Part shown: positions 3,940 through 62,851 of the stretch, one piece after another
How the letters are laid out: every line of letters begins with the position of its first letter
Position numbering within the stretch: the stretch's first letter is position 1
DNA from: Syntrophomonadaceae bacterium
GTDB taxonomy: Bacteria; Bacillota; Dethiobacteria; DTU022; UBA8154
Length of the DNA: 64,000 bases
NCBI GenBank assembly: GCA_003563895.1
Contig: PWTK01000112.1
Location: 158 to 64,157 of the forward strand
Direction: 5' to 3'
The notes under the pieces: generated by a model
Seen by the model: only the letters and a program-made list of their open reading frames with translations
Database searches by the model: none
Told to the model about the DNA's origin: nothing
Position numbers and translations under genes: made by a program

Positions 3940-6201
3940 ATGGAGAACAGGACAAACGCCTTAGACCTTCGCCCGATCCTGCAGCCAGAAAGCATCGCCA
4001 TCCTGGGAGCGACGCCGGATGCAAGAAAGCCAAACGGAATTCCGCTTTTCATGCTCCGCCAGTATGGCTATGCGGGAGAAATCTTTCCGGTCAACCCGAA
4101 TTACGGCGAGATCGATGGACTTCCCTGCTATCCCAGCATCTTCGAAGTGCCTTCTGAAAGCATCGATCTGGCTATCATCGGCGTGGCGGCCGCCAGCACG
4201 CTGGAAGTCCTTCAGCAGTGCGCCGCGAAAGGGGTCAGGGGGGCGATAGTCTTTACCTCCGGTTTCGCCGAAGCCGGGGAGACGGGGAGCGGCCTGCAGG
4301 AAGAGATCTTTCGGCTCTCCAGGGAAAGCGGGATGCGCATCCTCGGGCCCAACTGCGTCGGTATCATCAACCGCTCGCATAAGCTGTGGGCCTCTTTTGC
4401 CATGCCTCTCCTTTACCACCACCGCTACTATGAGCAAGCTTTTCACCTTATTTCTCAAAGCGGCTTTTTCGGCCAGACGATGTTCCAGATGGCCGCACGC
4501 GAAGGCCTTCTCTTCGACCAGTTTATCAGCGTGGGAAACGAAGCCGACCTCGCCCTGCCCCACTTTCTGGACCACATGGCCGGTTCTCGCCCCGGCCAGG
4601 CGAATATTATCGCCTGTTACATCGAGGGGCTCAAGGAGAAGGACGGTGCCCTCTTTAAAATAAGCGCCGAAAAAGCGCTGGAAAACGATAAGGTTGTGGC
4701 CGCCATCAAAGTCGGCCAGACCGAAGCAGCCGCTCGGGCGGCTTCCTCGCACACGGCCGCCCTGACCGGGTCCGATGAAGTGTACGACGCCTTTTTCCGC
4801 CAGAAGGGCATCATCCGCATGCCCGGGACAGAACAGATAATCCCCCTGTTAATCATCGCCGCTGCCGACAGGTTTCCTCCAGGCAAGAACACGGCCGTCA
4901 TCTCCGACTCGGGGGGCGGTGCCGTGCTCCTGGCCGAAAAATGCCAGCTCTACGGCCTGGAGCTGGCGTCCTTTCAAGAAGAAACCACCGAGAAACTGCA
5001 GGCCCTTCTGCCTTACTTTGCCGCCGCGAACAACCCGGTCGACCTGACGGCCCAGATCTTGACCCAGCCGGAGATCCTCTATCAAAGCCTGGAACTGGTG
5101 GAACGCGATCCCAATGTTGATCAATTGGTGCTGAATTTTGGCATAAACCCCGCTGGGAGCGGGGATGAAATGGTGCGGAGCATCGCCCAGATATATGCAG
5201 GGAGCGACAAGCCCATGATCGCCATCTGCTGGCCCTTTGGAGACGAAGCGTCTATCATACCGCTGCTCGAATCCCTGCGGAAATCCGGCCTCCCGGTTTT
5301 CCATGAAATGGACGACTGCATCTGGGCCCTGGGCGCGCTCAACCGGCGGCAGGAAAGGATCAGGCATTACCAAAAGCCGCCCTTTTGGAAACCGGGCGCG
5401 GAACAAAAGCGGGCGAGGGAGTTGCTGCAGGAGTATCGCCGGAGCCTTTTGCCGGAACACCTCAACGCCCCGGCAGAAGTCAAAGCCGGCACCCAACTAC
5501 AGGCTCAGGGGGAGAAATCCTTTTCCGTCAGCGAATACCAGCTGAAAAAGATGCTTTCAGCGTACGGCATCCCAACGGCGCCGGAGCGGCTTGTCCACAA
5601 CAGTGAAAAGGCCCTGCAGGCAGCTGAAGCGCTGGGTTACCCGGTGGCACTGAAAGTTGTTTCACCGGCGGTCGCGCATAAAACGGAGATCGGTGGGCTG
5701 AAGCTGAACCTGGACAGCGAGGCTGCCGTAACAAGCGCATTTGACGAGCTTGCCTCCAGGCTGGAGCTTTCCGCATCGGGTTCCCCCGCCGAGGGCATCC
5801 TGGTCCAGAAAATGCTTTCCGGCGCCGTTGAAGTCATCGTCGGCGTAAAAAAAGACCCCGTCTTTGGGCCTGTCATTCTCTGCGGCCTGGGGGGGATCTT
5901 TGTGGAAGTCCTCGAAGACATTTCCCTGCGGGTGGTTCCCATCTCCCGCCAGGACGCCGGGGAAATGCTGCAGGAGCTGCGTTCATTTGAAATTCTCCGC
6001 GGTGTCCGGGGGAAAGAGCCGGCCGACATAGAAGCGCTGATTGACGTCCTGTTGAACGTCTCCCGCCTGGCGCAGGAAGTCGAGGGCCTGGAAGAGCTGG
6101 ACATCAACCCGTTAATGGTTTACCCCGAGGGTCGCGGGGCGACAGCGGTAGATGCCTGGGGCATTTGGAGCTCCGCCCCCGACGAAAGCGGCACACCGTG
6201 A
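3940..6201 (+). CDS. ADP-forming acyl-CoA (acetyl-CoA) synthetase, fused alpha/beta type
   Basis: 753-aa ORF. N-terminal CoA-binding domain (SIAILGATPD...GYAGEIFPVNP), succinyl-CoA-synthetase-like ligase domain and C-terminal ATP-grasp (YGIPTAP...GYPVALKVVSP). Confidence 0.8.
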   Translation: MENRTNALDLRPILQPESIAILGATPDARKPNGIPLFMLRQYGYAGEIFPVNPNYGEIDGLPCYPSIFEVPSESIDLAIIGVAAASTLEVLQQCAAKGVRGAIVFTSGFAEAGETGSGLQEEIFRLSRESGMRILGPNCVGIINRSHKLWASFAMPLLYHHRYYEQAFHLISQSGFFGQTMFQMAAREGLLFDQFISVGNEADLALPHFLDHMAGSRPGQANIIACYIEGLKEKDGALFKISAEKALENDKVVAAIKVGQTEAAARAASSHTAALTGSDEVYDAFFRQKGIIRMPGTEQIIPLLIIAAADRFPPGKNTAVISDSGGGAVLLAEKCQLYGLELASFQEETTEKLQALLPYFAAANNPVDLTAQILTQPEILYQSLELVERDPNVDQLVLNFGINPAGSGDEMVRSIAQIYAGSDKPMIAICWPFGDEASIIPLLESLRKSGLPVFHEMDDCIWALGALNRRQERIRHYQKPPFWKPGAEQKRARELLQEYRRSLLPEHLNAPAEVKAGTQLQAQGEKSFSVSEYQLKKMLSAYGIPTAPERLVHNSEKALQAAEALGYPVALKVVSPAVAHKTEIGGLKLNLDSEAAVTSAFDELASRLELSASGSPAEGILVQKMLSGAVEVIVGVKKDPVFGPVILCGLGGIFVEVLEDISLRVVPISRQDAGEMLQELRSFEILRGVRGKEPADIEALIDVLLNVSRLAQEVEGLEELDINPLMVYPEGRGATAVDAWGIWSSAPDESGTP

Positions 6202-6299: not shown

Positions 6300-6540
6300 G
6301 GGTTTCAGGCTTGGTTCACAGACCGATGCAGACCGCCTGGATTATCTGGACCGGCTGCGATGGACCAGGGGCTTCGTCTGCCAAACCTGCAGCCATAATG
6401 GGAGTTTGGGGCTGGGATATTACCACTCAGTCCGGTTGAGTGGATTCCCCAAAGGTGCGAAATACTCCTGCACGACAAGGCTGTTCAAATCGATGGAGTG
6501 CAGGCAGGGGGTTCTTTTCATCCGGGAGAGCCGGGAGCGC
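6300..6540 (+). pseudogene. Remnant of an IS1595-family transposase (N-terminal zinc-ribbon only)
   Basis: The ORF fragment reads DRLDYLDRLRWTRGFVCQTCSHNG...YSC, matching the C..YL..LRWP.GF.CP.CG pattern of the IS1595 transposase zinc-ribbon domain. No DDE domain follows. Confidence 0.4.
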
Positions 6541-8233: not shown

Positions 8234-9691
<1,458 letters not shown>

Positions 9692-10670: not shown

Positions 10671-12227
<1,557 letters not shown>

Positions 12228-28396: not shown

Positions 28397-28548
28397 CAGG
28401 CTATCAAAGATGCTCAGGATGACAATGAAAGAAATCCCGCAAAAAAAGTGGTTTAAAAGGTCACGCTTACAAAAAGGCCTTGATCTGCTAAAAAGCTGTA
28501 TTTGGGGGCCACTCAACAAGAATTCCCTGAGTTAAGTTGCCCGTCATG
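28397..28548 (+). repeat. Family-C interspersed repeat, copy C1 (about 150 bp)
   Basis: CAGGCTATC...CTCAGGATGACAATGAAAGAAATCCCGC...GGTCACGCTTACAAAAAGGCCTTGATCTGCTAAAAAGCTGTATTTGGG...CAACAAGAATTCCCTGAGTTAAG...TCATG. Aligns to 29615-29767, 41659-41810 and 62567-62851. Confidence 0.9.
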
Positions 28549-29400: not shown

Positions 29401-29614
29401 TTCGCACTTCTGAACATAATTATAGCTGCAAGCGTGGTCCACCGGAGATGACTAATATTAAATGAATACCAGGCACAATAATGATTGTCGTGCGATACAA
29501 CATGTCACTGGTTTTATGTTTTAGAGCAGTCAGCAGCAGCCTGCGGTCGAATCCCTGCACCAAACGGGGCCATATTGCCGGTCATCGTGTAAGCTCCGCT
29601 GCTTTTTGATTTTT

Positions 29615-29767
29615 CAGGCTATCGGGCTTGCTCAGGATGACAATGAAAGAAATCCCGCAAAAAAAGAGGTTTTAAAATGTCACACTTACAAAAAGGCCTT
29701 GATCTGCTAAAAAGCTGTATTTTAGGGCCACTCAACAAGAATTCCCTGAGTTAAGCTGATAATCATG
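29615..29767 (+). repeat. Family-C interspersed repeat, copy C2
   Basis: Closest relative of C1. They share CAGGCTATC, GAAATCCCGC and GGCCTTGATCTGCTAAAAAGCTG, where C3 and C4 differ. Confidence 0.9.
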
Positions 29768-32950: not shown

Positions 32951-33009
32951 TTCGGACACCTGTCCCCGTTTTCGTGCGCTGCACAAGAGCAGCACCGATT
33001 TTCTCCTGG

Positions 33010-33038
33010 AAAAAAACAGGGCTTCGAGAAGCCCTGTT
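33010..33038 (-). terminator. Rho-independent terminator of rpmE
   Basis: Minus strand reads CAGGGCU-UCUCGA-AGCCCUG followed by UUUUUUU. Confidence 0.85.
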
Positions 33039-33060
33039 CGCAGTCGTTTAATCTTCCTGG

Positions 33061-33261
33061 CTATTCCCGGCCGTATTTGCGCTTGAATCTCTCGACACGC
33101 CCACCGCTGTCCACGAACTTCTGTTTACCGGTGAAAAAAGGATGGCAGTTGGAGCAAATCTCTACCTTCAATTCTTCCCTGGTGGATCCGGCTTCAAACG
33201 TGGTGCCGCAGGCACATCGAATAGTGGTTTTCACATACTCGGGGTGGATCTCCTTTTTCAT
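33061..33261 (-). CDS. rpmE: 50S ribosomal protein L31 (Zn-ribbon type A)
   Basis: 66 aa, MKKEIHPEY..., C-x-C ... C-x2-C. Confidence 0.97.
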
Positions 33262-41398: not shown

Positions 41399-41658
41399 AG
41401 AAGATGGAACGGCCCACTGTGGCACGCGTATTATGCCTGGCCAGTTTCGTGCTTCCATGATATTTTCAGGGCACACCCGTCAAGCGGATTTGGATTTCAG
41501 GTTATCTATTTTTATTATACATCACAGCCTTGTTTCCCTTTTTTTACGTCAAATTTCATCCCGATTTTGTTTTTGTGCACCTTACCTTTGACCAAAAATC
41601 ACGCCGCGCAGTTCGCACCCGGGGTCCCCGCAGTTTTCATGGCTCCTTATAACAGAAT

Positions 41659-41810
41659 CAGACTATCAGTTTACTCAGGATGACAATGAAAGAAGTCCCG
41701 CAAAAATAGAGTTTTAAAAGGTCACACTTACAAAAAAGGTCTTGATCTTCTAAAGATGTATTTGGGAGGCCACCCAACAAGAATTCCCTGAGTTAAGTTG
41801 ATAGTCATGT
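41659..41810 (+). repeat. Family-C interspersed repeat, copy C3
   Basis: Aligns over its full length with C1, C2 and C4. Belongs to the CAGACTATC / GAAGTCCCGC subfamily with C4. Confidence 0.9.
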
Positions 41811-45727: not shown

Positions 45728-46464
45728 TCATGAACTGAAATCTTGCGATATACGCTTCAACATCCAAAAGGCAAACAGCAAAATGAAAGGGGTGGCCAGG
45801 TGGGTGAGGGTAAAAAAACCTGCCCCCCAGGACTCGTTTACGTATCCCCAAAGATAGAGAGGGTTTTCCCGGAACGTTTCTTCAATAACCCCTCTCAAAA
45901 GGGAATAGTAGACGACAAACCCCCAGAAAAGCATGCCCGGTTTCTTTTCTATCTTGCTGGCCAAGATATGGTGGACAAGCAGACAAGCCAAGCCGATAAG
46001 GGAGCCGTAAACCTGGGCCGGGTGACGCTCAAAAAACAAGGCTGCCGCAGGCCGGCCCAAAATTTCCTGGTTGAAAATATTGGCAATCCTTACCAGGGTG
46101 TAACCGATGCAGATTCCCGGAACAGCCAGGTCGAGCAGGATCCCCATCCGGAGACGGCGGCGTGCCGCAACAATCCAGGCTGCCGCCATCCCCCCCAGCA
46201 GCCCTCCGTGGAAGGCAAGCCCACCGCGGTCGATGCGTATGGCCTCCAGGGGTTGGTGGGCGAAGTCGGAAAGGTTTGTCAAAACATAAATCAGCCGGGC
46301 CCCTGCAAGTCCCCCGACCACCACAAAACACACAATGTCCACAGCGCTTCCTCATTTAACCCCTCTTTCACACCATTTTTAATCAACAAATAACAACCTG
46401 TAAGAAAAGAAAGCGCCATCATAAAGCCGTACCAGTGAACGGTAAAAGGCCCCAGCGAAAACAT
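45728..46464 (-). pseudogene. lgt: Prolipoprotein diacylglyceryl transferase with a 1-nt frameshift at about 46339
   Basis: The N-terminal 42 codons (MFSLGPFTVHWYGFMMALSFLTG...LNEEALW) are in one frame from the ATG at 46464. The rest (DIVCFVVVGGLAGARLIYVL...) follows in the -1 frame. TGGAC is found where TGGGAC would restore a continuous Lgt. Confidence 0.8.
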
Positions 46465-46609
46465 TATCGGATCGATCCCCTCTATATAGATGAGCGCTCA
46501 CCTCTTTTATCAAATATTACTAATTCAATTGCTATTATAACATTTATATACATTCATTTTAACCTGCTGCCTGGCTTAAAGACAAGGCCTGCTCGGCTTT
46601 TCGTTGTAT

Positions 46610-46830
46610 GGGTAGTCGGTTAGCTCCACCCAACTATTCACAATACGTTGTATCCAATGCATTTATCATTTTCGGTGGCCGATTGAACAAATTCGGCGTC
46701 CATTAAGTAATAATTCTACATATTTCTGATAGGAATTTTGGGGGTCAGCTCCCATTCTACGCTCTTATGTTCTGCAATGGAAGACTTTCGCCTGGAGCGT
46801 ATCATAGGTGGAGCTAACCGACTACCCCGT
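46610..46830. mobile_element. 221-bp MITE-like element (family E) with perfect 21-bp terminal inverted repeats and 10-bp target-site duplication
   Basis: GGGTAGTCGGTTAGCTCCACC (46610-46630) is the exact reverse complement of 46807-46827. TTCGTTGTAT occurs at 46600-46609 and 46831-40. No ORF lies inside. Confidence 0.85.
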
Positions 46831-46909
46831 TTCGTTGTATTTTTGCCCGGCTTTTTTCAAAACATCCCGCCAGCAGCACAATTATAATGCCACACCTTTT
46901 CCTGTTGTG

Positions 46910-46918
46910 TGGTATAAT
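46910..46918 (+). promoter_or_regulatory. Extended -10 box (TGGTATAAT) upstream of the cysK-like gene
   Basis: TGGTATAAT lies about 50 nt upstream of the proposed TTG start. The -35 is poor. Confidence 0.4.
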
Positions 46919-46970
46919 GTGTGATATAATGAACGAAAAGCAAATGCTTTTTCCGGGGGGTGTATTTTTC

Positions 46971-47948
46971 TTGAAGGAAAATTTGTTGGCAACCATCGGC
47001 CAAACACCGCTTGTTCGCATCCAGCGGCTTTGCCCGAATCCCCAGGTTACCATGGCCGTTAAGCTGGAAGGGGCCAATCCCGGAGGCAGCGTGAAAGACC
47101 GCATCGCCTATTATATGATCCTTATGGCCGAAAAAACGGGGCAGCTTACCCGCGACAAGATCATTTTGGAGCCTTCAAGCGGCAATACCGGTATCGGCCT
47201 GGCTTTGGTAGCCGCCGTTAAGGGCTACCGGCTGGTGATTACCATGTCCGAGTGGATGAGCGAAGAGCGCCGGAAGACCATGGAAGCGCTGGGAGCGGAG
47301 ATCCTGCTGACTCCCGGAGAAGAGGGGACCGACGGGGCCATCGAAAAGGCTTATGAAATCTACAGCCAAAACCCTTCCCTCTATTTCATGCCCAACCAGT
47401 TCTCCAACCCCAACAACGCTCTGGCCCATTACGAAACCACCGCCCTGGAGCTGTGGGAGCAGACCGACGGGCGGATCACCCATTTTGTGGCCGGCATGGG
47501 AACCACCGGCACCCTGATGGGCTGCTCCAGGAGGCTGAAGGAATTCAACCCGGAGATTCAGATCCTGGGCGTGGAACCTTACAAGTGCCACAAAATACAG
47601 GGGCTGAAAAACATGCAGGAAGCCATCGTTCCCGACATCTACAACCCCTCCTGCCTGGACCAGAAAATAAATGTTTACGACGAAGACGCCTTCCAGATGG
47701 CCAAGCGCCTGGCCAAGGAAGAGGGCATCCTGTCGGGCATGAGCGCAGGGGCTTCCTTTCATGTGGCCTACGAGCTGGCCCTAAAGCTGGATGAAGGCTT
47801 CATCGTCACCATCATTCCCGACCGCGGTGAGAAATACATGTCGACCCCGCTCTACTGCCTGGAGCCCTGCGAACACCGCAGCGAAAGCTGCCTTCTGCGC
47901 GATTTCTTTTCTGCCTCGGGCAGAGGTGAATTTGATGGCCCAACATAA
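46971..47948 (+). CDS. Cysteine synthase family PLP enzyme (CysK/CysM-like)
   Basis: PLP-Lys motif NPGGSVKDR and SSGNTGIGLA. I propose the TTG at 46971 (MKENLLATIGQTPLV) after GGGGGGTG; the ORF track starts at 46887. Confidence 0.85.
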   Translation: MKENLLATIGQTPLVRIQRLCPNPQVTMAVKLEGANPGGSVKDRIAYYMILMAEKTGQLTRDKIILEPSSGNTGIGLALVAAVKGYRLVITMSEWMSEERRKTMEALGAEILLTPGEEGTDGAIEKAYEIYSQNPSLYFMPNQFSNPNNALAHYETTALELWEQTDGRITHFVAGMGTTGTLMGCSRRLKEFNPEIQILGVEPYKCHKIQGLKNMQEAIVPDIYNPSCLDQKINVYDEDAFQMAKRLAKEEGILSGMSAGASFHVAYELALKLDEGFIVTIIPDRGEKYMSTPLYCLEPCEHRSESCLLRDFFSASGRGEFDGPT

Positions 47949-49098
47949 TACTGAGTTCGTTTTTTATCTGCCCACCCGCGTGGTCTTCGGCAGCACTGCA
48001 CTGGATCAACTGGTCGGGGCATTAAAGGAACTACCCGCTTGGCGGGTGCTGGTCGTTACCGACCCCGGCATCATCCGGGCTGGACTCCTGGAGCCGCTAA
48101 CCCGGCGCTTGGAAAAACAAGGCATTGCTTACGAGATCTTCAGTGAGGTGGAACCAAACCCCAAAGATTACCAGGTCCGGCACGGTGCCCAAAATGCGGA
48201 GGCCTTCGGCGCCCAGGCCCTTGTAGCCCTTGGCGGTGGAAGCCCCATTGACTGCGCCAAGGCGATGGGCGTGCTCATGGCCCATCACACCCGAGACCTC
48301 GCTCGCTTTTACGGGAAAGATGCCGTCTATCAACCTTCGCCGCCCCTTTTTACCGTACCCACCACGGCCGGCACGGGAAGCGAGGTCACTTTCTCCTCCG
48401 TTATTACCGATACCTCAGAGAAAAGCAAGTTTACCATCAAAAGCCCTCTGCTGGCGCCCAGGGCGGCTTTCATGGACCCGGGGCTCACCGCGGGGATGCC
48501 CCCCGATCTGACCGCTTATACCGGCATGGACGCCCTGACCCATGCCGTGGAAGCCTACACCGCGAAAGCGGCCAACCCTTTCAGCGACCTGTTTGCGCTG
48601 CGGGCGGCAGCGCTCATCGGAACGCACCTCTACCGGGCCTTTCACTGCGGCAGCGACCCCGAGGCCAGGGCGGGGATGTTGCTGAGCAGCCTTCTCGGGG
48701 GCATGGCGTTCAGCCAATCCGATGTGGCCTCCGTGCACTGCCTGGCCGAATCCCTGGGAAGCGTCAGCGACGCCCCCCACGGTGCCTGTAACGCCGTGCT
48801 GCTTCCTTACGTGATGGAATTTAACATGCCCTGCTGCGTGCAGAAATATGCCGATATTGCCCGAGCGCTGGGTGTCAGCTTTAACGGCGAAGAGGAAGGA
48901 GCGCGGGCGGCGGTGGTTGTGACGCGGGAAATGGCCCGGGAACTCCGGCTCCCACCGCTAAAGCAGCTGGGCATAAAAGAAGAAAGCTTGCCGAAAGCGG
49001 CGGAGCTTTCGACAGGCAATATTTCCACCAAAAGCAATCCCCGCCCCATGGGGCGGGAAGACTACCTGGATATCTTGAAGAAGGCCTACGGGTCATGA
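47935..49098 (+). CDS. Iron-containing alcohol dehydrogenase
   Basis: GGGSPIDCAKA and a His cluster (HAVEAYT, HCLAESLG). The ATG at 47935 overlaps the cysK-like stop by 14 nt. Confidence 0.9.
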   Translation: MAQHNTEFVFYLPTRVVFGSTALDQLVGALKELPAWRVLVVTDPGIIRAGLLEPLTRRLEKQGIAYEIFSEVEPNPKDYQVRHGAQNAEAFGAQALVALGGGSPIDCAKAMGVLMAHHTRDLARFYGKDAVYQPSPPLFTVPTTAGTGSEVTFSSVITDTSEKSKFTIKSPLLAPRAAFMDPGLTAGMPPDLTAYTGMDALTHAVEAYTAKAANPFSDLFALRAAALIGTHLYRAFHCGSDPEARAGMLLSSLLGGMAFSQSDVASVHCLAESLGSVSDAPHGACNAVLLPYVMEFNMPCCVQKYADIARALGVSFNGEEEGARAAVVVTREMARELRLPPLKQLGIKEESLPKAAELSTGNISTKSNPRPMGREDYLDILKKAYGS

Positions 49099-49343
49099 GG
49101 AGCTTTCAACATGCACCGCGCTGCCAAGGCAGGCTTATGCCCCTGCCGGATGCACCCCATGGAAAAAAAGAGGCGCCGAGGGGCCCCAGTTTTTCTTCAC
49201 TATTTTTGAAGAAACGCGGTGCAGTATATTTTTCACCAGGTTGGCTATCCAGTTCATATCTGAGCAGCCGCCAATATTCTTGGCGTCTTAAGTAATCAGA
49301 GATCGTTTTTCTGTCCCCGTTTTTACAGACGCTCAATCTCTTT

Positions 49344-49820
49344 TTAGCGGTGATACGGCTCCCCCCGGAGGATTTTAAAGGAGCGGTAAAGCTGTTCCAG
49401 GATAATAATGCGGGCCAGGCGGTGGGGAAAAGTCAGTTCGGACAGAGAGAGCAGAAGATCGGCCCGCTTTTTGATATCCGGCGCCAGGCCCAGCGGTCCC
49501 CCGATCACGATGTCCAGCTTGCCCTTCCCGGCGTTCAGCAGCCCGTCCAGGTAAGACGCCAGCCCGATGGAGGTCATTTTAAGCCCTTCGGATGAGAGCG
49601 CCAACAGGTGGGCTTCATCCCGCAGCTGCCGACTGATGGCCTGGGCCTCCTCTTCCAGTGCCTTGCGAATGGCGGCTTCTCCCCCACCCTCCTCTTTGGC
49701 CTCGGCCAGCTCGGTCGTCTTGAGCCGGGCATACGGCCTTAATCGCTCCTGGTAATGGGCCGCACCCTCCTTGTAAAAAGGTTCTTTGATTTTTCCCACA
49801 GCGATAAGATGAATATTCAT
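49344..49820 (-). CDS. rlmH: 23S rRNA (pseudouridine1915-N3)-methyltransferase
   Basis: 159 aa from the ATG at 49820 (MNIHLIAVGKIKEPF...). SPOUT C-terminus IIGGPLGL...LSLSELTFPH. Confidence 0.93.
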   Translation of the reverse strand: MNIHLIAVGKIKEPFYKEGAAHYQERLRPYARLKTTELAEAKEEGGGEAAIRKALEEEAQAISRQLRDEAHLLALSSEGLKMTSIGLASYLDGLLNAGKGKLDIVIGGPLGLAPDIKKRADLLLSLSELTFPHRLARIIILEQLYRSFKILRGEPYHR

Positions 49821-50111
49821 ATTCCACCCCACAGCAAAGCTGCGGAATAACTTACCGCAGCTTCCCTTTTCCGACAGCACCGACGGAGCCGTTGGTGCTG
49901 ATTGCCCTGCCGAAACGAACTCGGAACGGGTGAATCCCAATGCAAGCCTCTCGGGCAAACCTGCCGGCCCGGCTGGCAGCACACCTGCCAGTCGTTTCAG
50001 TTCGTTTGCTTCCCGGCCGGCGGCAGGGGACACAGAGCCCATTGGCTCATCGCGATCGGTTTGATTGTTCAAACGCTCCCCGGTGCAGCTGAACTGGCGC
50101 CGGCTCACGCT

Positions 50112-51056
50112 CTATTCCGCTTTGCCCAGCTCCGCCTTTTCCAAGCCTGAAAGATCCTCCAAAAGAGAGGGAAGCACACCCGTGATCTCCCCCCGTTCCT
50201 GCAGGCTTTGCACCAACCTCTCGCGTTTTTCGCCCACCACCAGCGCCGGCACCGGATTGCGGGTGTGGCCTTTTGTGGTCAGGTTTTCCAGGTTGCCGTG
50301 GTCGCTGGTCAGCAGCAGCAGCTTTTCCGATATATCCATGTGCTCCACCACTGCACTCAAGAAGCTGTCCAACGTGGCAATCACGTCCCTCGCCATCTCT
50401 TCGTCTCCATCGTGTCCGGCGAGGTCCGTGAGAAAGTGCTCATAAAGGGTGAGATGATAGTCCTTTGCCAGGGAGACCAGGCGCCTGCCGGCTTCCCGGG
50501 GCGTAATGAGCGGGACGTCGTACTCCATTTTTTGCAGGTAGTGATGCGTGATATCCATGTAGACCGCCCGGCCTTCTTCCAGGTCTTCCAGGGTGCGAAA
50601 ACAGTTCCCTCCATACAGGTTGATGAGCGTGGAACAGGAAAAACGCCTCCCCTGGCCTTTCTCCAGCAAGTCGAAAAATTCCGGGCGGTACGCGTTGGCA
50701 AAGGTTCCCCGAAGGCCTCTGCCCTTCAGCTGCCGGAACATCCCTTTGCCGGCCAGGATTTTTTTAAGGCTCTCGGTGGGAAAGCCGTTCAGGTGGCGGT
50801 TAATGACCTGTGCCGCATTCACGCCGGTAAAGAGAGCCGTCTGCCCCGTCGCACTCTGGGGCAACCCCTCCACCCCCAGGGTGGCGTCCAGCCCCAGCAG
50901 GGATGCGATTTCGTAATCCTGGCCGGAAGCGGCGGCGGTCAAGGGGCGGCCCCCCAGTATTTTTTTTAAAAAAACCGTTTCGGTCGTATAAAAGGGGTTG
51001 GTGTGGTCCTCGGAACCAAGGCCCACACCGTCCACAAAGATAAATATGATGGACAT
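50112..51056 (-). CDS. Alkaline-phosphatase-superfamily metalloenzyme (phosphopentomutase/iPGM-like)
   Basis: 314 aa. N-terminal FVDGVGLG metal site and C-terminal TSDHGN motif. Confidence 0.6.
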   Translation of the reverse strand: MSIIFIFVDGVGLGSEDHTNPFYTTETVFLKKILGGRPLTAAASGQDYEIASLLGLDATLGVEGLPQSATGQTALFTGVNAAQVINRHLNGFPTESLKKILAGKGMFRQLKGRGLRGTFANAYRPEFFDLLEKGQGRRFSCSTLINLYGGNCFRTLEDLEEGRAVYMDITHHYLQKMEYDVPLITPREAGRRLVSLAKDYHLTLYEHFLTDLAGHDGDEEMARDVIATLDSFLSAVVEHMDISEKLLLLTSDHGNLENLTTKGHTRNPVPALVVGEKRERLVQSLQERGEITGVLPSLLEDLSGLEKAELGKAE

Positions 51057-62496: not shown

Positions 62497-62566
62497 AGTA
62501 ATTTTAGTAATTCACTCTGGAAGGCGATTTCCCTGCCGGAGAAAAAAATATTTTATTTTGGTTTTT

Positions 62567-62851
62567 CAGACTATCGAGTTTGCTCAGGATGACAATAAAA
62601 GAAGTCCCGCAAAAAAGAGGTTATAAAAGGTCACACTTACAAAAAGGTTTTGATCTCCTAAAGCTGGACACAGCCAGTGCCATAAAATTGAAATTCAAAA
62701 TGACCCCTTCTAAACGTAGCAAACATCATTGTTCACGCGATCGCAAGAAAAGTTTTTGCCAAATTTACAAAGAACTTGAGAATTAAGGGTCTAAAGCTGT
62801 GTTTGGGAGGCCACTCAACAAGAATTCCCTGAATTAAGTTGACCAGTCATG
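62567..62851 (+). repeat. Family-C repeat, copy C4, carrying a 124-bp nested insertion (62667-62790)
   Basis: C4 aligns to C3 on both sides of the insertion. CTAAAGCTG is present at 62658-62666 and 62791-62799. Confidence 0.85.

What the first reader, a model, noticed from the sequence alone, without database searches (positions are those of the whole stretch)
46600..46840. Textbook MITE: 221 bp, perfect 21-bp terminal inverted repeats, 10-bp target-site duplication
GGGTAGTCGGTTAGCTCCACC at 46610-46630 is exactly complementary to 46807-46827. TTCGTTGTAT flanks the element on both sides (46600-46609 and 46831-46840). The interior has no ORF and one small hairpin (GCCGA...TCGGC). It sits between lgt and the cysK-like promoter. 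A perfect TIR and an intact TSD indicate a recent transposition event, which implies an active cognate transposase somewhere in the genome.
Basis: seen in the sequence. Interest (0 to 1): 0.6.

Follow-up and report, generated by a model that had tools for sequence, protein, structure and literature searches.

The report
IS1595-type miniature transposon (MITE)
The 220-base segment between lgt and a cysK-like gene is an ordinary non-coding miniature transposon whose ends are identical to those of 1-kb IS1595-family insertion sequences found in many phyla, but this genome assembly holds no transposase that could move it.

Summary
A perfect 21-nt inverted repeat lies at 46610-46630 and 46807-46827, and none is expected by chance. 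An exact direct repeat flanks it. That repeat is 11 nt long (TTTCGTTGTAT), not 10.

The MITE reading is supported, and the parent family is now identified. The terminal repeat core GGYAGTCGGTTAGCTCC occurs in more than 119 stretches from more than 15 phyla. In 13 of these it bounds 1.0-1.06-kb elements with a single ORF carrying Zn_ribbon_IS1595 and DDE_Tnp_IS1595. Those elements mostly make 8-bp target duplications, so the true duplication here is probably 8 bp inside the 11-nt repeat.

A sibling copy (94% identical) sits at another locus (C64) with a different 8-bp duplication. It carries a nested copy of an abundant 155-bp repeat. Its arms have decayed without compensating changes, which argues against a structured RNA.

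The inference of an active cognate transposase in this genome is not supported. The 80%-complete assembly has no IS1595 DDE domain, only zinc-ribbon remnants inside other miniature elements.

Verdict: an ordinary new member of a known kind, of low interest.

The parts
46608..46830 (.). Whole miniature element under the 8-bp duplication model (ATGGGTAG...CTACCCCGT). The boundaries are uncertain by about 3 nt.
   Evidence: The ends of full-length relatives lie 0-3 nt outside the G run.
46599..46609 (.). Left copy of the 11-nt direct repeat TTTCGTTGTAT. The probable 8-bp target duplication is TTCGTTGT at 46600-46607.
   Evidence: D3; 8-bp duplications in 12 of 16 relatives.
46610..46630 (+). Left terminal inverted repeat, GGGTAGTCGGTTAGCTCCACC.
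   Evidence: It is identical to the ends of the full-length ISs L048, L075, L112, L121, L131 and L140.
46631..46806 (.). Non-coding interior of 176 nt. Apart from the C64 sibling, it has no detectable similarity to IS ends or to anything else.
   Evidence: folding z-score -0.34.
46716..46723 (.). CTACATAT, the unoccupied target site of the 155-bp repeat that is nested in the C64 sibling copy.
46807..46827 (-). Right terminal inverted repeat. The C run continues to 46828. This is tentatively the transposase-proximal (IRL) end of the ancestral IS.
   Evidence: In one search the IRL profile scored 31.7 bits on this end and 18.4 bits on the other. This is weak evidence.
46830..46840 (.). Right copy of the 11-nt direct repeat. 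The probable 8-bp duplication is at 46831-46838.
   Evidence: D3.
45728..46464 (-). Left neighbour, lgt, split over two reading frames.
46534..46562 (-). Promoter-like site for lgt (TTAAAA-17-TATAAT with an upstream TG), 46 nt from the element.
46971..47948 (+). Right neighbour, a CysK-like PLP enzyme. Two -10-like boxes at 46906-46929 lie about 80 nt downstream of the element.
   Evidence: (D2).

Best explanation
The segment at about 46608-46830 is a non-autonomous miniature inverted-repeat transposable element (MITE). It belongs to a lineage of the IS1595 family whose named relatives are ISCsp2 and ISRama1. Its two 21-nt arms are the sites recognised by that lineage's transposase, a protein with an N-terminal zinc ribbon and a DDE catalytic domain.

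A transposase supplied in trans cut the element at its G-run ends and joined it into a staggered cut in the AT-rich spacer between the divergent lgt and cysK-like promoters. Repair of the stagger produced the flanking duplication, most likely the 8 bp TTCGTTGT within the 11-nt repeat.

Shown:
- the arms and the direct repeat;
- identity of the arms with the ends of transposase-bearing ISs;
- a sibling copy elsewhere with its own duplication;
- the lack of coding capacity.

Inferred:
- the cut-and-join chemistry, from family membership;
- the 8-bp stagger;
- that the element now sits inert, because no cognate transposase is in the assembly.

The element lies upstream of both neighbouring promoter-like sites. 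It probably has little effect on either gene.
For: - Arms and repeat: a perfect 21-nt inverted repeat and an exact 11-nt direct repeat.
- Spread of the arm core: GGYAGTCGGTTAGCTCC gives more than 119 exact stretches across phyla.
- Full-length relatives: 13 pairs lie 1.0-1.06 kb apart and enclose a single ORF. Most of these frames are 317-346 aa. Four are shorter (177-268 aa) and look truncated.
- Transposase identity: the two ORFs scanned match PF12760 Zn_ribbon_IS1595, PF12762 DDE_Tnp_IS1595 and NF033547.
- Association with the transposase: 46 of 139 arm occurrences adjoin such a gene, and 42 more lie at a locus edge.
- Exact arm identity: six full-length copies carry the same 21-22 nt, GGGGTAGTCGGTTAGCTCCACC.
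- Duplication length: flanking duplications of these copies are 8 bp in 12 of 16 cases. This matches the family description (PMC8101967; PMC12561309).
- Sibling: the copy at C64:9514-9901 is about 94% identical and is flanked by TTTCATAT on both sides.
- Other members: four more miniature elements have this arm type, on C83, C28, C20 and C73. Two of them still hold the first ~45 transposase codons.
- Named relatives: ISCsp2 and ISRama1 have the arm core GGGGTAnnnnnTTAGCTCCA.
Against: - The interior shows no significant similarity to the IS ends beyond the arms. Origin by internal deletion of an IS is therefore not shown for this subfamily.
- Only two copies share this interior.
- No empty site could be found.
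- No cognate transposase is present in the assembly.
- The direct repeat is 11 nt, not the family-typical 8. The left G run is also one G shorter than the right, so the exact ends are not settled.
Confidence: 0.9

Rival explanations
1. A full-length IS1595-family element inserted here and was later reduced in place by internal deletion. On this reading the segment is a local remnant and was never mobile as a miniature element.
For: Other miniature elements in this genome (C73, C20) are plainly deletion derivatives that keep the transposase start. The IRL profile aligns weakly past the right arm.
Against: The same 176-nt interior occurs at C64 with a different 8-bp duplication. The short form itself must therefore have been copied to a new site at least once. 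The interior-only profile search is not significant.
Confidence: 0.05
2. The segment is a conserved structured RNA or regulatory hairpin. The long stem would be under selection for pairing, for example as a bidirectional terminator or insulator between lgt and the cysK-like gene.
For: The whole element folds far better than shuffles (z = -6.4).
Against: - That score comes only from the arms; the interior alone gives z = -0.34.
- There is no Rfam match at E <= 1.
- No terminator-like site was found.
- In the C64 sibling the 21-bp stem has three mismatches and two wobbles. None is compensated, and the small interior hairpin is also broken.
- The arm sequence is shared with transposase-bearing ISs in many phyla.
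Confidence: 0.02
3. The segment is an assembly artefact, that is, a fold-back or chimeric join in a metagenome-assembled genome.
For: The genome is a fragmented assembly of 114 contigs. A Logan contig of run SRR490155 stops 7 nt inside the right arm.
Against: That separately assembled contig reproduces the right arm, the right direct repeat and 4.1 kb of flank at 100% identity. An artefact would not produce a target duplication. It would also not explain a diverged sibling with its own duplication.
Confidence: 0.01

Closest known systems
IS1595 family insertion sequences, in particular the full-length ~1.0-1.06-kb elements found here (for example L075 in a Coriobacteriia MAG, L048 in an Actinomycetota MAG, L121 in Desulfobacterales and L131 in Marinamargulisbacteria) and the named ISCsp2 and ISRama1
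   Same: The ends are the same. The 21-22 nt GGGGTAGTCGGTTAGCTCCACC are identical to those of the unnamed full-length copies. The core architecture GGGGTAnnnnnTTAGCTCCA is shared with ISCsp2 and ISRama1. The ends start with GG, the targets are AT-rich, and the duplication is 8 bp in the sibling copy and in most relatives (PMC8101967).
   Different: There is no transposase gene, and the interior is unrelated. ISCsp2 and ISRama1 transposases are only about 50% identical to those of the elements with identical ends. Their inverted repeats also run 15-19 nt further outward.
Bacterial MITEs derived from DDE insertion sequences (for example Correia elements of Neisseria and RUP of Streptococcus pneumoniae; recalled from general knowledge, not tested here)
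   Same: The element is small and non-coding. It has terminal inverted repeats matching an IS, is flanked by a target duplication, lies between genes, and depends on a transposase supplied in trans.
   Different: The parent family is different (IS1595). The copy number is very low, with two copies of this interior and six elements of this arm type in 1.82 Mb. No regulatory role is evident.
Sibling miniature elements of the same genome that keep the transposase start (C73:~32990-33230, C20:29229-29484)
   Same: The arm type is the same (GGGGGTACGCGGTTAGCTCC, 2-3 differences in the 17-nt core). They are of similar size, about 245 bp, and are flanked by 8-10-nt direct repeats.
   Different: They still encode the first ~45 codons of the zinc-ribbon transposase. 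The window element has no recognisable coding remnant.

Membership tests
Bacterial MITE (non-autonomous element with terminal inverted repeats) | Short (under about 500 bp) and without coding capacity | tested here: met
   The element is 218-223 nt. The longest overlapping ORFs are 49 aa and 96 aa, and both run out of the element. No transposase similarity was found.
Bacterial MITE (non-autonomous element with terminal inverted repeats) | Terminal inverted repeats | tested here: met
   21 of 21 nt are complementary, and none is expected by chance.
Bacterial MITE (non-autonomous element with terminal inverted repeats) | Flanking target-site duplication | tested here: met
   An exact 11-nt direct repeat flanks the element. 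The sibling copy has its own 8-nt repeat.
Bacterial MITE (non-autonomous element with terminal inverted repeats) | More than one copy at unrelated loci | tested here: met
   The C64 copy is 93-96% identical. There are only two copies of this interior. Six elements of this arm type occur in the genome.
Bacterial MITE (non-autonomous element with terminal inverted repeats) | Ends match those of an autonomous IS | tested here: met
   The ends are identical to those of 1.0-1.06-kb elements encoding IS1595-family transposases.
Bacterial MITE (non-autonomous element with terminal inverted repeats) | Empty site in a related genome or population | not testable with these tools
   - There is no other species in the genus, and family relatives lack lgt next to the cysK-like gene.
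- The flank 22-mer is absent from the metagenome contigs.
- The neighbouring protein's 90% cluster has one member.
IS1595 family (as a non-autonomous derivative) | Ends begin with GG and are those bound by a Zn_ribbon_IS1595 + DDE_Tnp_IS1595 transposase | tested here: met
   Binding itself is inferred, not shown.
IS1595 family (as a non-autonomous derivative) | 8-bp target duplication | tested here: inconclusive
   The window copy has an 11-nt repeat that can contain an 8-bp duplication. The sibling copy has exactly 8 nt. Relatives have 8 nt in 12 of 16 cases, 9 nt in 2 and 11 nt in 2.
IS1595 family (as a non-autonomous derivative) | Cognate transposase present in the same genome | tested here: not met
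   There is no PF12762 match at E <= 1. tblastn finds only N-terminal fragments of 36-42 aa. The assembly is 79.6% complete, so absence from the real genome is not proven.
Structured non-coding RNA | Conserved structure with compensatory changes, or a match to a known family | tested here: not met
   There is no Rfam match. The interior folds like shuffles. Stem changes in the sibling are uncompensated. With only two sequences, this is a weak test of covariation.

The most novel reading that the evidence does not exclude
The element is still mobile. Its perfect arms would be kept intact by repeated trans-mobilisation, either from an IS1595-lineage transposase that failed to assemble or from one that visits on a plasmid or phage. 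That lineage keeps the same 17-22-nt ends across more than 15 phyla. It would be an unusually promiscuous IS that spawns unrelated-interior MITEs independently in many hosts.
Probability: 0.12. Interest if true: 0.35.

Novelty: new member of a known kind. Interest (0 to 1): 0.18.

Why it matters
It matters little on its own.
- It assigns a parent family to one of the many unannotated repeats in a poorly known Bacillota-like metagenome genome.
- It shows that this genome holds many decayed IS1595 derivatives but no autonomous copy in the assembly.
- It gives a relative order of events: the 220-nt element spread first, and the abundant 155-nt repeat then inserted into one copy.
- The very wide spread of the identical end sequence may interest people who curate IS databases.

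Tried and rejected
- Rfam scan of 46000-47400 at E <= 1: nothing.
- Parent IS in the own genome: none. There is no DDE_Tnp_IS1595 match, only zinc-ribbon fragments.
- Parent IS in the 32 family relatives: there was one arm hit, a decayed miniature element in G021. IS1595 transposases occur only in G017, and the one element (L162) where inverted repeats could be read has different ends, AACTGAATATCAAGTT.
- Empty site:
  - family relatives do not have lgt next to the cysK-like orthologue;
  - the flank 22-mer has no exact match in the metagenome contigs;
  - exact-protein look-ups found only one contig, from run SRR490155, and it is the same sequence;
  - the neighbour's 90% cluster has a single member.
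- Interior 20-mer in the metagenome contigs: three hits, all chance, with no wider similarity.
- Homology of the interior to IS ends: profiles of the 5' and 3' IS ends without the arm columns gave no hit. A possible decayed 'DYPxTYxxFV' remnant suggested is not significant and is not claimed.

Full report
**Observation**

The window shows GGGTAGTCGGTTAGCTCCACC at 46610-46630. Its exact reverse complement lies at 46807-46827. With up to three mismatches allowed, the 21-mer occurs only at these two places in 64 kb. None of 100 shuffles gave any match.

The flanking direct repeat is exact and 11 nt long, TTTCGTTGTAT at 46599-46609 and 46830-46840. The left copy abuts the arm. The right copy is 2 nt (CG) away from it.

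No ORF of note lies inside the element.
- lgt lies on the minus strand. It is split into two frames, 46291-46464 and 45728-46342.
- A PLP-dependent CysK-like gene lies on the plus strand. It probably starts at TTG 46971.

**What it is**

A search of the window's own assembly (1.82 Mb, 114 contigs, 79.6% complete) found a sibling at C64:9514-9901. An alignment shows about 94% identity over the whole element.

That sibling has its own flanking duplication, TTTCATAT on both sides. It also carries a 155-nt insertion flanked by a duplicated CTACATAT. The window copy has a single CTACATAT at 46716-46723, so it serves as the empty site for that nested insertion.

The inserted 155-nt sequence is a very abundant repeat, with more than 55 copies, many at contig ends. 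The 220-nt unit therefore exists at two unrelated loci with two different duplications. That is the signature of transposition of the short form itself.

**The parent family**

The arm core GGYAGTCGGTTAGCTCC was scanned over one genome per prokaryotic species. They come from Acidobacteriota, Actinomycetota, Planctomycetota, Desulfobacterota, Pseudomonadota, Bacillota, Chloroflexota and others.

Thirteen inverted pairs lie 1.0-1.06 kb apart and enclose one ORF. Most of these frames are 317-346 aa; four are shorter (177-268 aa) and look truncated. The two ORFs scanned match PF12760 (IS1595 zinc ribbon), PF12762 (ISXO2-like DDE domain) and NCBIfam NF033547, 'IS1595 family transposase'.

Of 139 arm occurrences:
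- 46 adjoin such a gene on the inward side;
- 42 lie too near a locus edge to tell;
- 51 have none, and these include MITE-sized pairs of 145-280 bp in other phyla.

Six full-length copies carry exactly the window's arm, GGGGTAGTCGGTTAGCTCCACC.

The nearest named elements are ISRama1 and ISCsp2, found by tblastn in the plasmid collection. Their transposases are about 50% identical at the amino-acid level. Their inverted repeats hold the same core pattern, GGGGTAnnnnnTTAGCTCCA, but extend 15-19 nt further outward.

**Target duplication**

Sixteen copies in other genomes and in this one have a detectable flanking repeat. It is exactly 8 nt in 12 of them, 9 nt in 2 and 11 nt in 2. This agrees with the published description of the family: 8-bp duplications, GG ends and an N-terminal zinc finger (PMC8101967; ISApl4 with AT-rich 8-bp repeats, PMC12561309).

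In these relatives the duplication lies 0-3 nt outside the G run. The simplest reading for the window copy has three parts:
- The duplication is the 8 bp TTCGTTGT, at 46600-46607 and 46831-46838.
- The element runs from 46608 to 46830.
- Three further flank bases match the element's terminal bases by chance, at roughly 1 in 64.

A real 10- or 11-bp stagger cannot be excluded. The left G run (GGG) is one G shorter than the right (GGGG), so the extreme tips are not perfectly symmetrical.

**Other members in this genome**

Six elements carry this arm type.
- The window copy and the C64 copy share one interior.
- C83:~10836-11062 has an unrelated interior and no clean duplication.
- C28:~6043-6191 has a third interior. 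It resembles a decayed element in one family relative, G021.
- C20:29229-29484 and C73:~32990-33230 still encode the first ~45 codons of the transposase and are plain internal-deletion derivatives.

A second arm type, GGGTATCCACTTAACCGG, occurs on C40 and at the end of C14. It is close to the ISRama1 ends.

The assembly has no match to the IS1595 DDE domain at E <= 1. tblastn with two full-length transposases finds only N-terminal fragments. There are about 10-25 zinc-ribbon fragments in frames of 22-178 aa, most of them 39-72 aa.

Among the 32 other species of the family, only G017 has IS1595 transposases. The one element whose inverted repeats could be read (L162) has different ends.

Insertion sequences often fail to assemble, and one zinc-ribbon frame runs off the end of contig C14. 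A full-length copy in the real genome is therefore not excluded, but it is not shown.

As for 'recent', the two copies differ at about 13 of 220 positions. All six arm differences between them are departures of the C64 copy from the IS consensus, and none are departures of the window copy. The window copy therefore left a functional lineage later than C64 did, or has simply been luckier. That supports 'younger than its sibling' but not 'recent' in absolute terms.

**Rivals**

A structured RNA is unlikely for these reasons:
- There is no Rfam match.
- The strong fold of the whole element (z = -6.4) vanishes when the arms are removed (z = -0.34).
- The sibling's stem carries three mismatches and two wobbles without compensation, and the small interior hairpin is broken there too.

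Decay in place of a full-length IS is contradicted by the second copy of the short form. An assembly artefact is contradicted by a separately assembled Logan contig. That contig reproduces the right arm, the right repeat and 4.1 kb of flank at 100% identity.

**What could not be done**

No empty site was found. The genus has a single species in the collection. Family relatives lack the lgt-cysK adjacency. The flank is absent from the metagenome contigs.

The interior has no significant similarity to IS ends. How this subfamily acquired its interior is unknown.

**Position and likely effect**

The element lies 46 nt upstream of a good promoter-like site for lgt (46562-46534, minus strand). It lies about 80 nt upstream of two -10-like boxes before the cysK-like gene (46906-46929). 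It interrupts neither. Any effect on expression is untested.

**Earlier notes of this scan**

Earlier notes had already flagged IS1595-derived miniature elements elsewhere in this genome, the lgt frameshift and the abundant ~153-bp MITE. My results agree with them. One note calls the organism a soda-lake Dethiobacteria-class bacterium. I did not verify that.

**Verdict**

The MITE reading is supported, and the parent is now assigned to the IS1595 family. The claim of an active partner in this genome is unsupported. This is an ordinary new member of a known kind.

Noticed in passing
G000:C64:9629-9783; window copies at about 28411-28539, 29614-29767, 41658-41809, 62566-62662 and 62793-62842: A ~155-nt repeat occurs in more than 55 copies in the 1.82-Mb assembly, many at contig ends. 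One copy is nested in the sibling of the finding and is flanked by a duplicated CTACATAT, so it is itself a transposed element.
   Followed up: partly
window 45728-46464 (minus strand): lgt is split into two overlapping frames, 46291-46464 and 45728-46342. Both match Pfam LGT. This is either a frameshift or an assembly error in a homopolymer run.
   Followed up: no
G000:C73:~32990-33230, C20:29229-29484, C40:~8450-8680, C14:1-250; window 6322-6396: The assembly has no IS1595 DDE domain but about 10-25 zinc-ribbon fragments. Several sit in ~245-bp miniature elements that keep the first ~45 transposase codons. A second arm type, GGGTATCCACTTAACCGG, resembles ISRama1.
   Followed up: partly
L028-L146 (genome-contig loci): The 17-nt end core is exactly conserved in more than 119 stretches from more than 15 phyla. 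The two transposases read in full (L043, L075) are visibly similar but not identical, and their identity was not measured. MITE-sized pairs of 145-280 bp with unrelated interiors occur in Planctomycetota, Desulfobacterota, Pseudomonadota and Marinobacter.
   Followed up: partly
L166 213-252/1295-1334; L167 208-242/1289-1323: In ISCsp2 and ISRama1 the inverted repeats extend 15-19 nt outside the G run (ACTGTAnAnATGnAA). In the lineage with the window's ends, by contrast, target duplications abut the G run.
   Followed up: no
window 46906-46970: The leader of the cysK-like gene has two tandem 12-nt units, each with a -10-like box (TGTGTGGTATAA and TGTGTGATATAA). A small hairpin follows (GAAAAGCAAATGCTTTTTC) before a G-rich ribosome-binding site.
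   Followed up: no
L165 (Logan contig SRR490155_161452) = window 46800-50948: A separately assembled contig is 100% identical and ends 7 nt inside the right arm of the element. The reason for the break is unknown; it could be a repeat, low coverage or a polymorphism.
   Followed up: no
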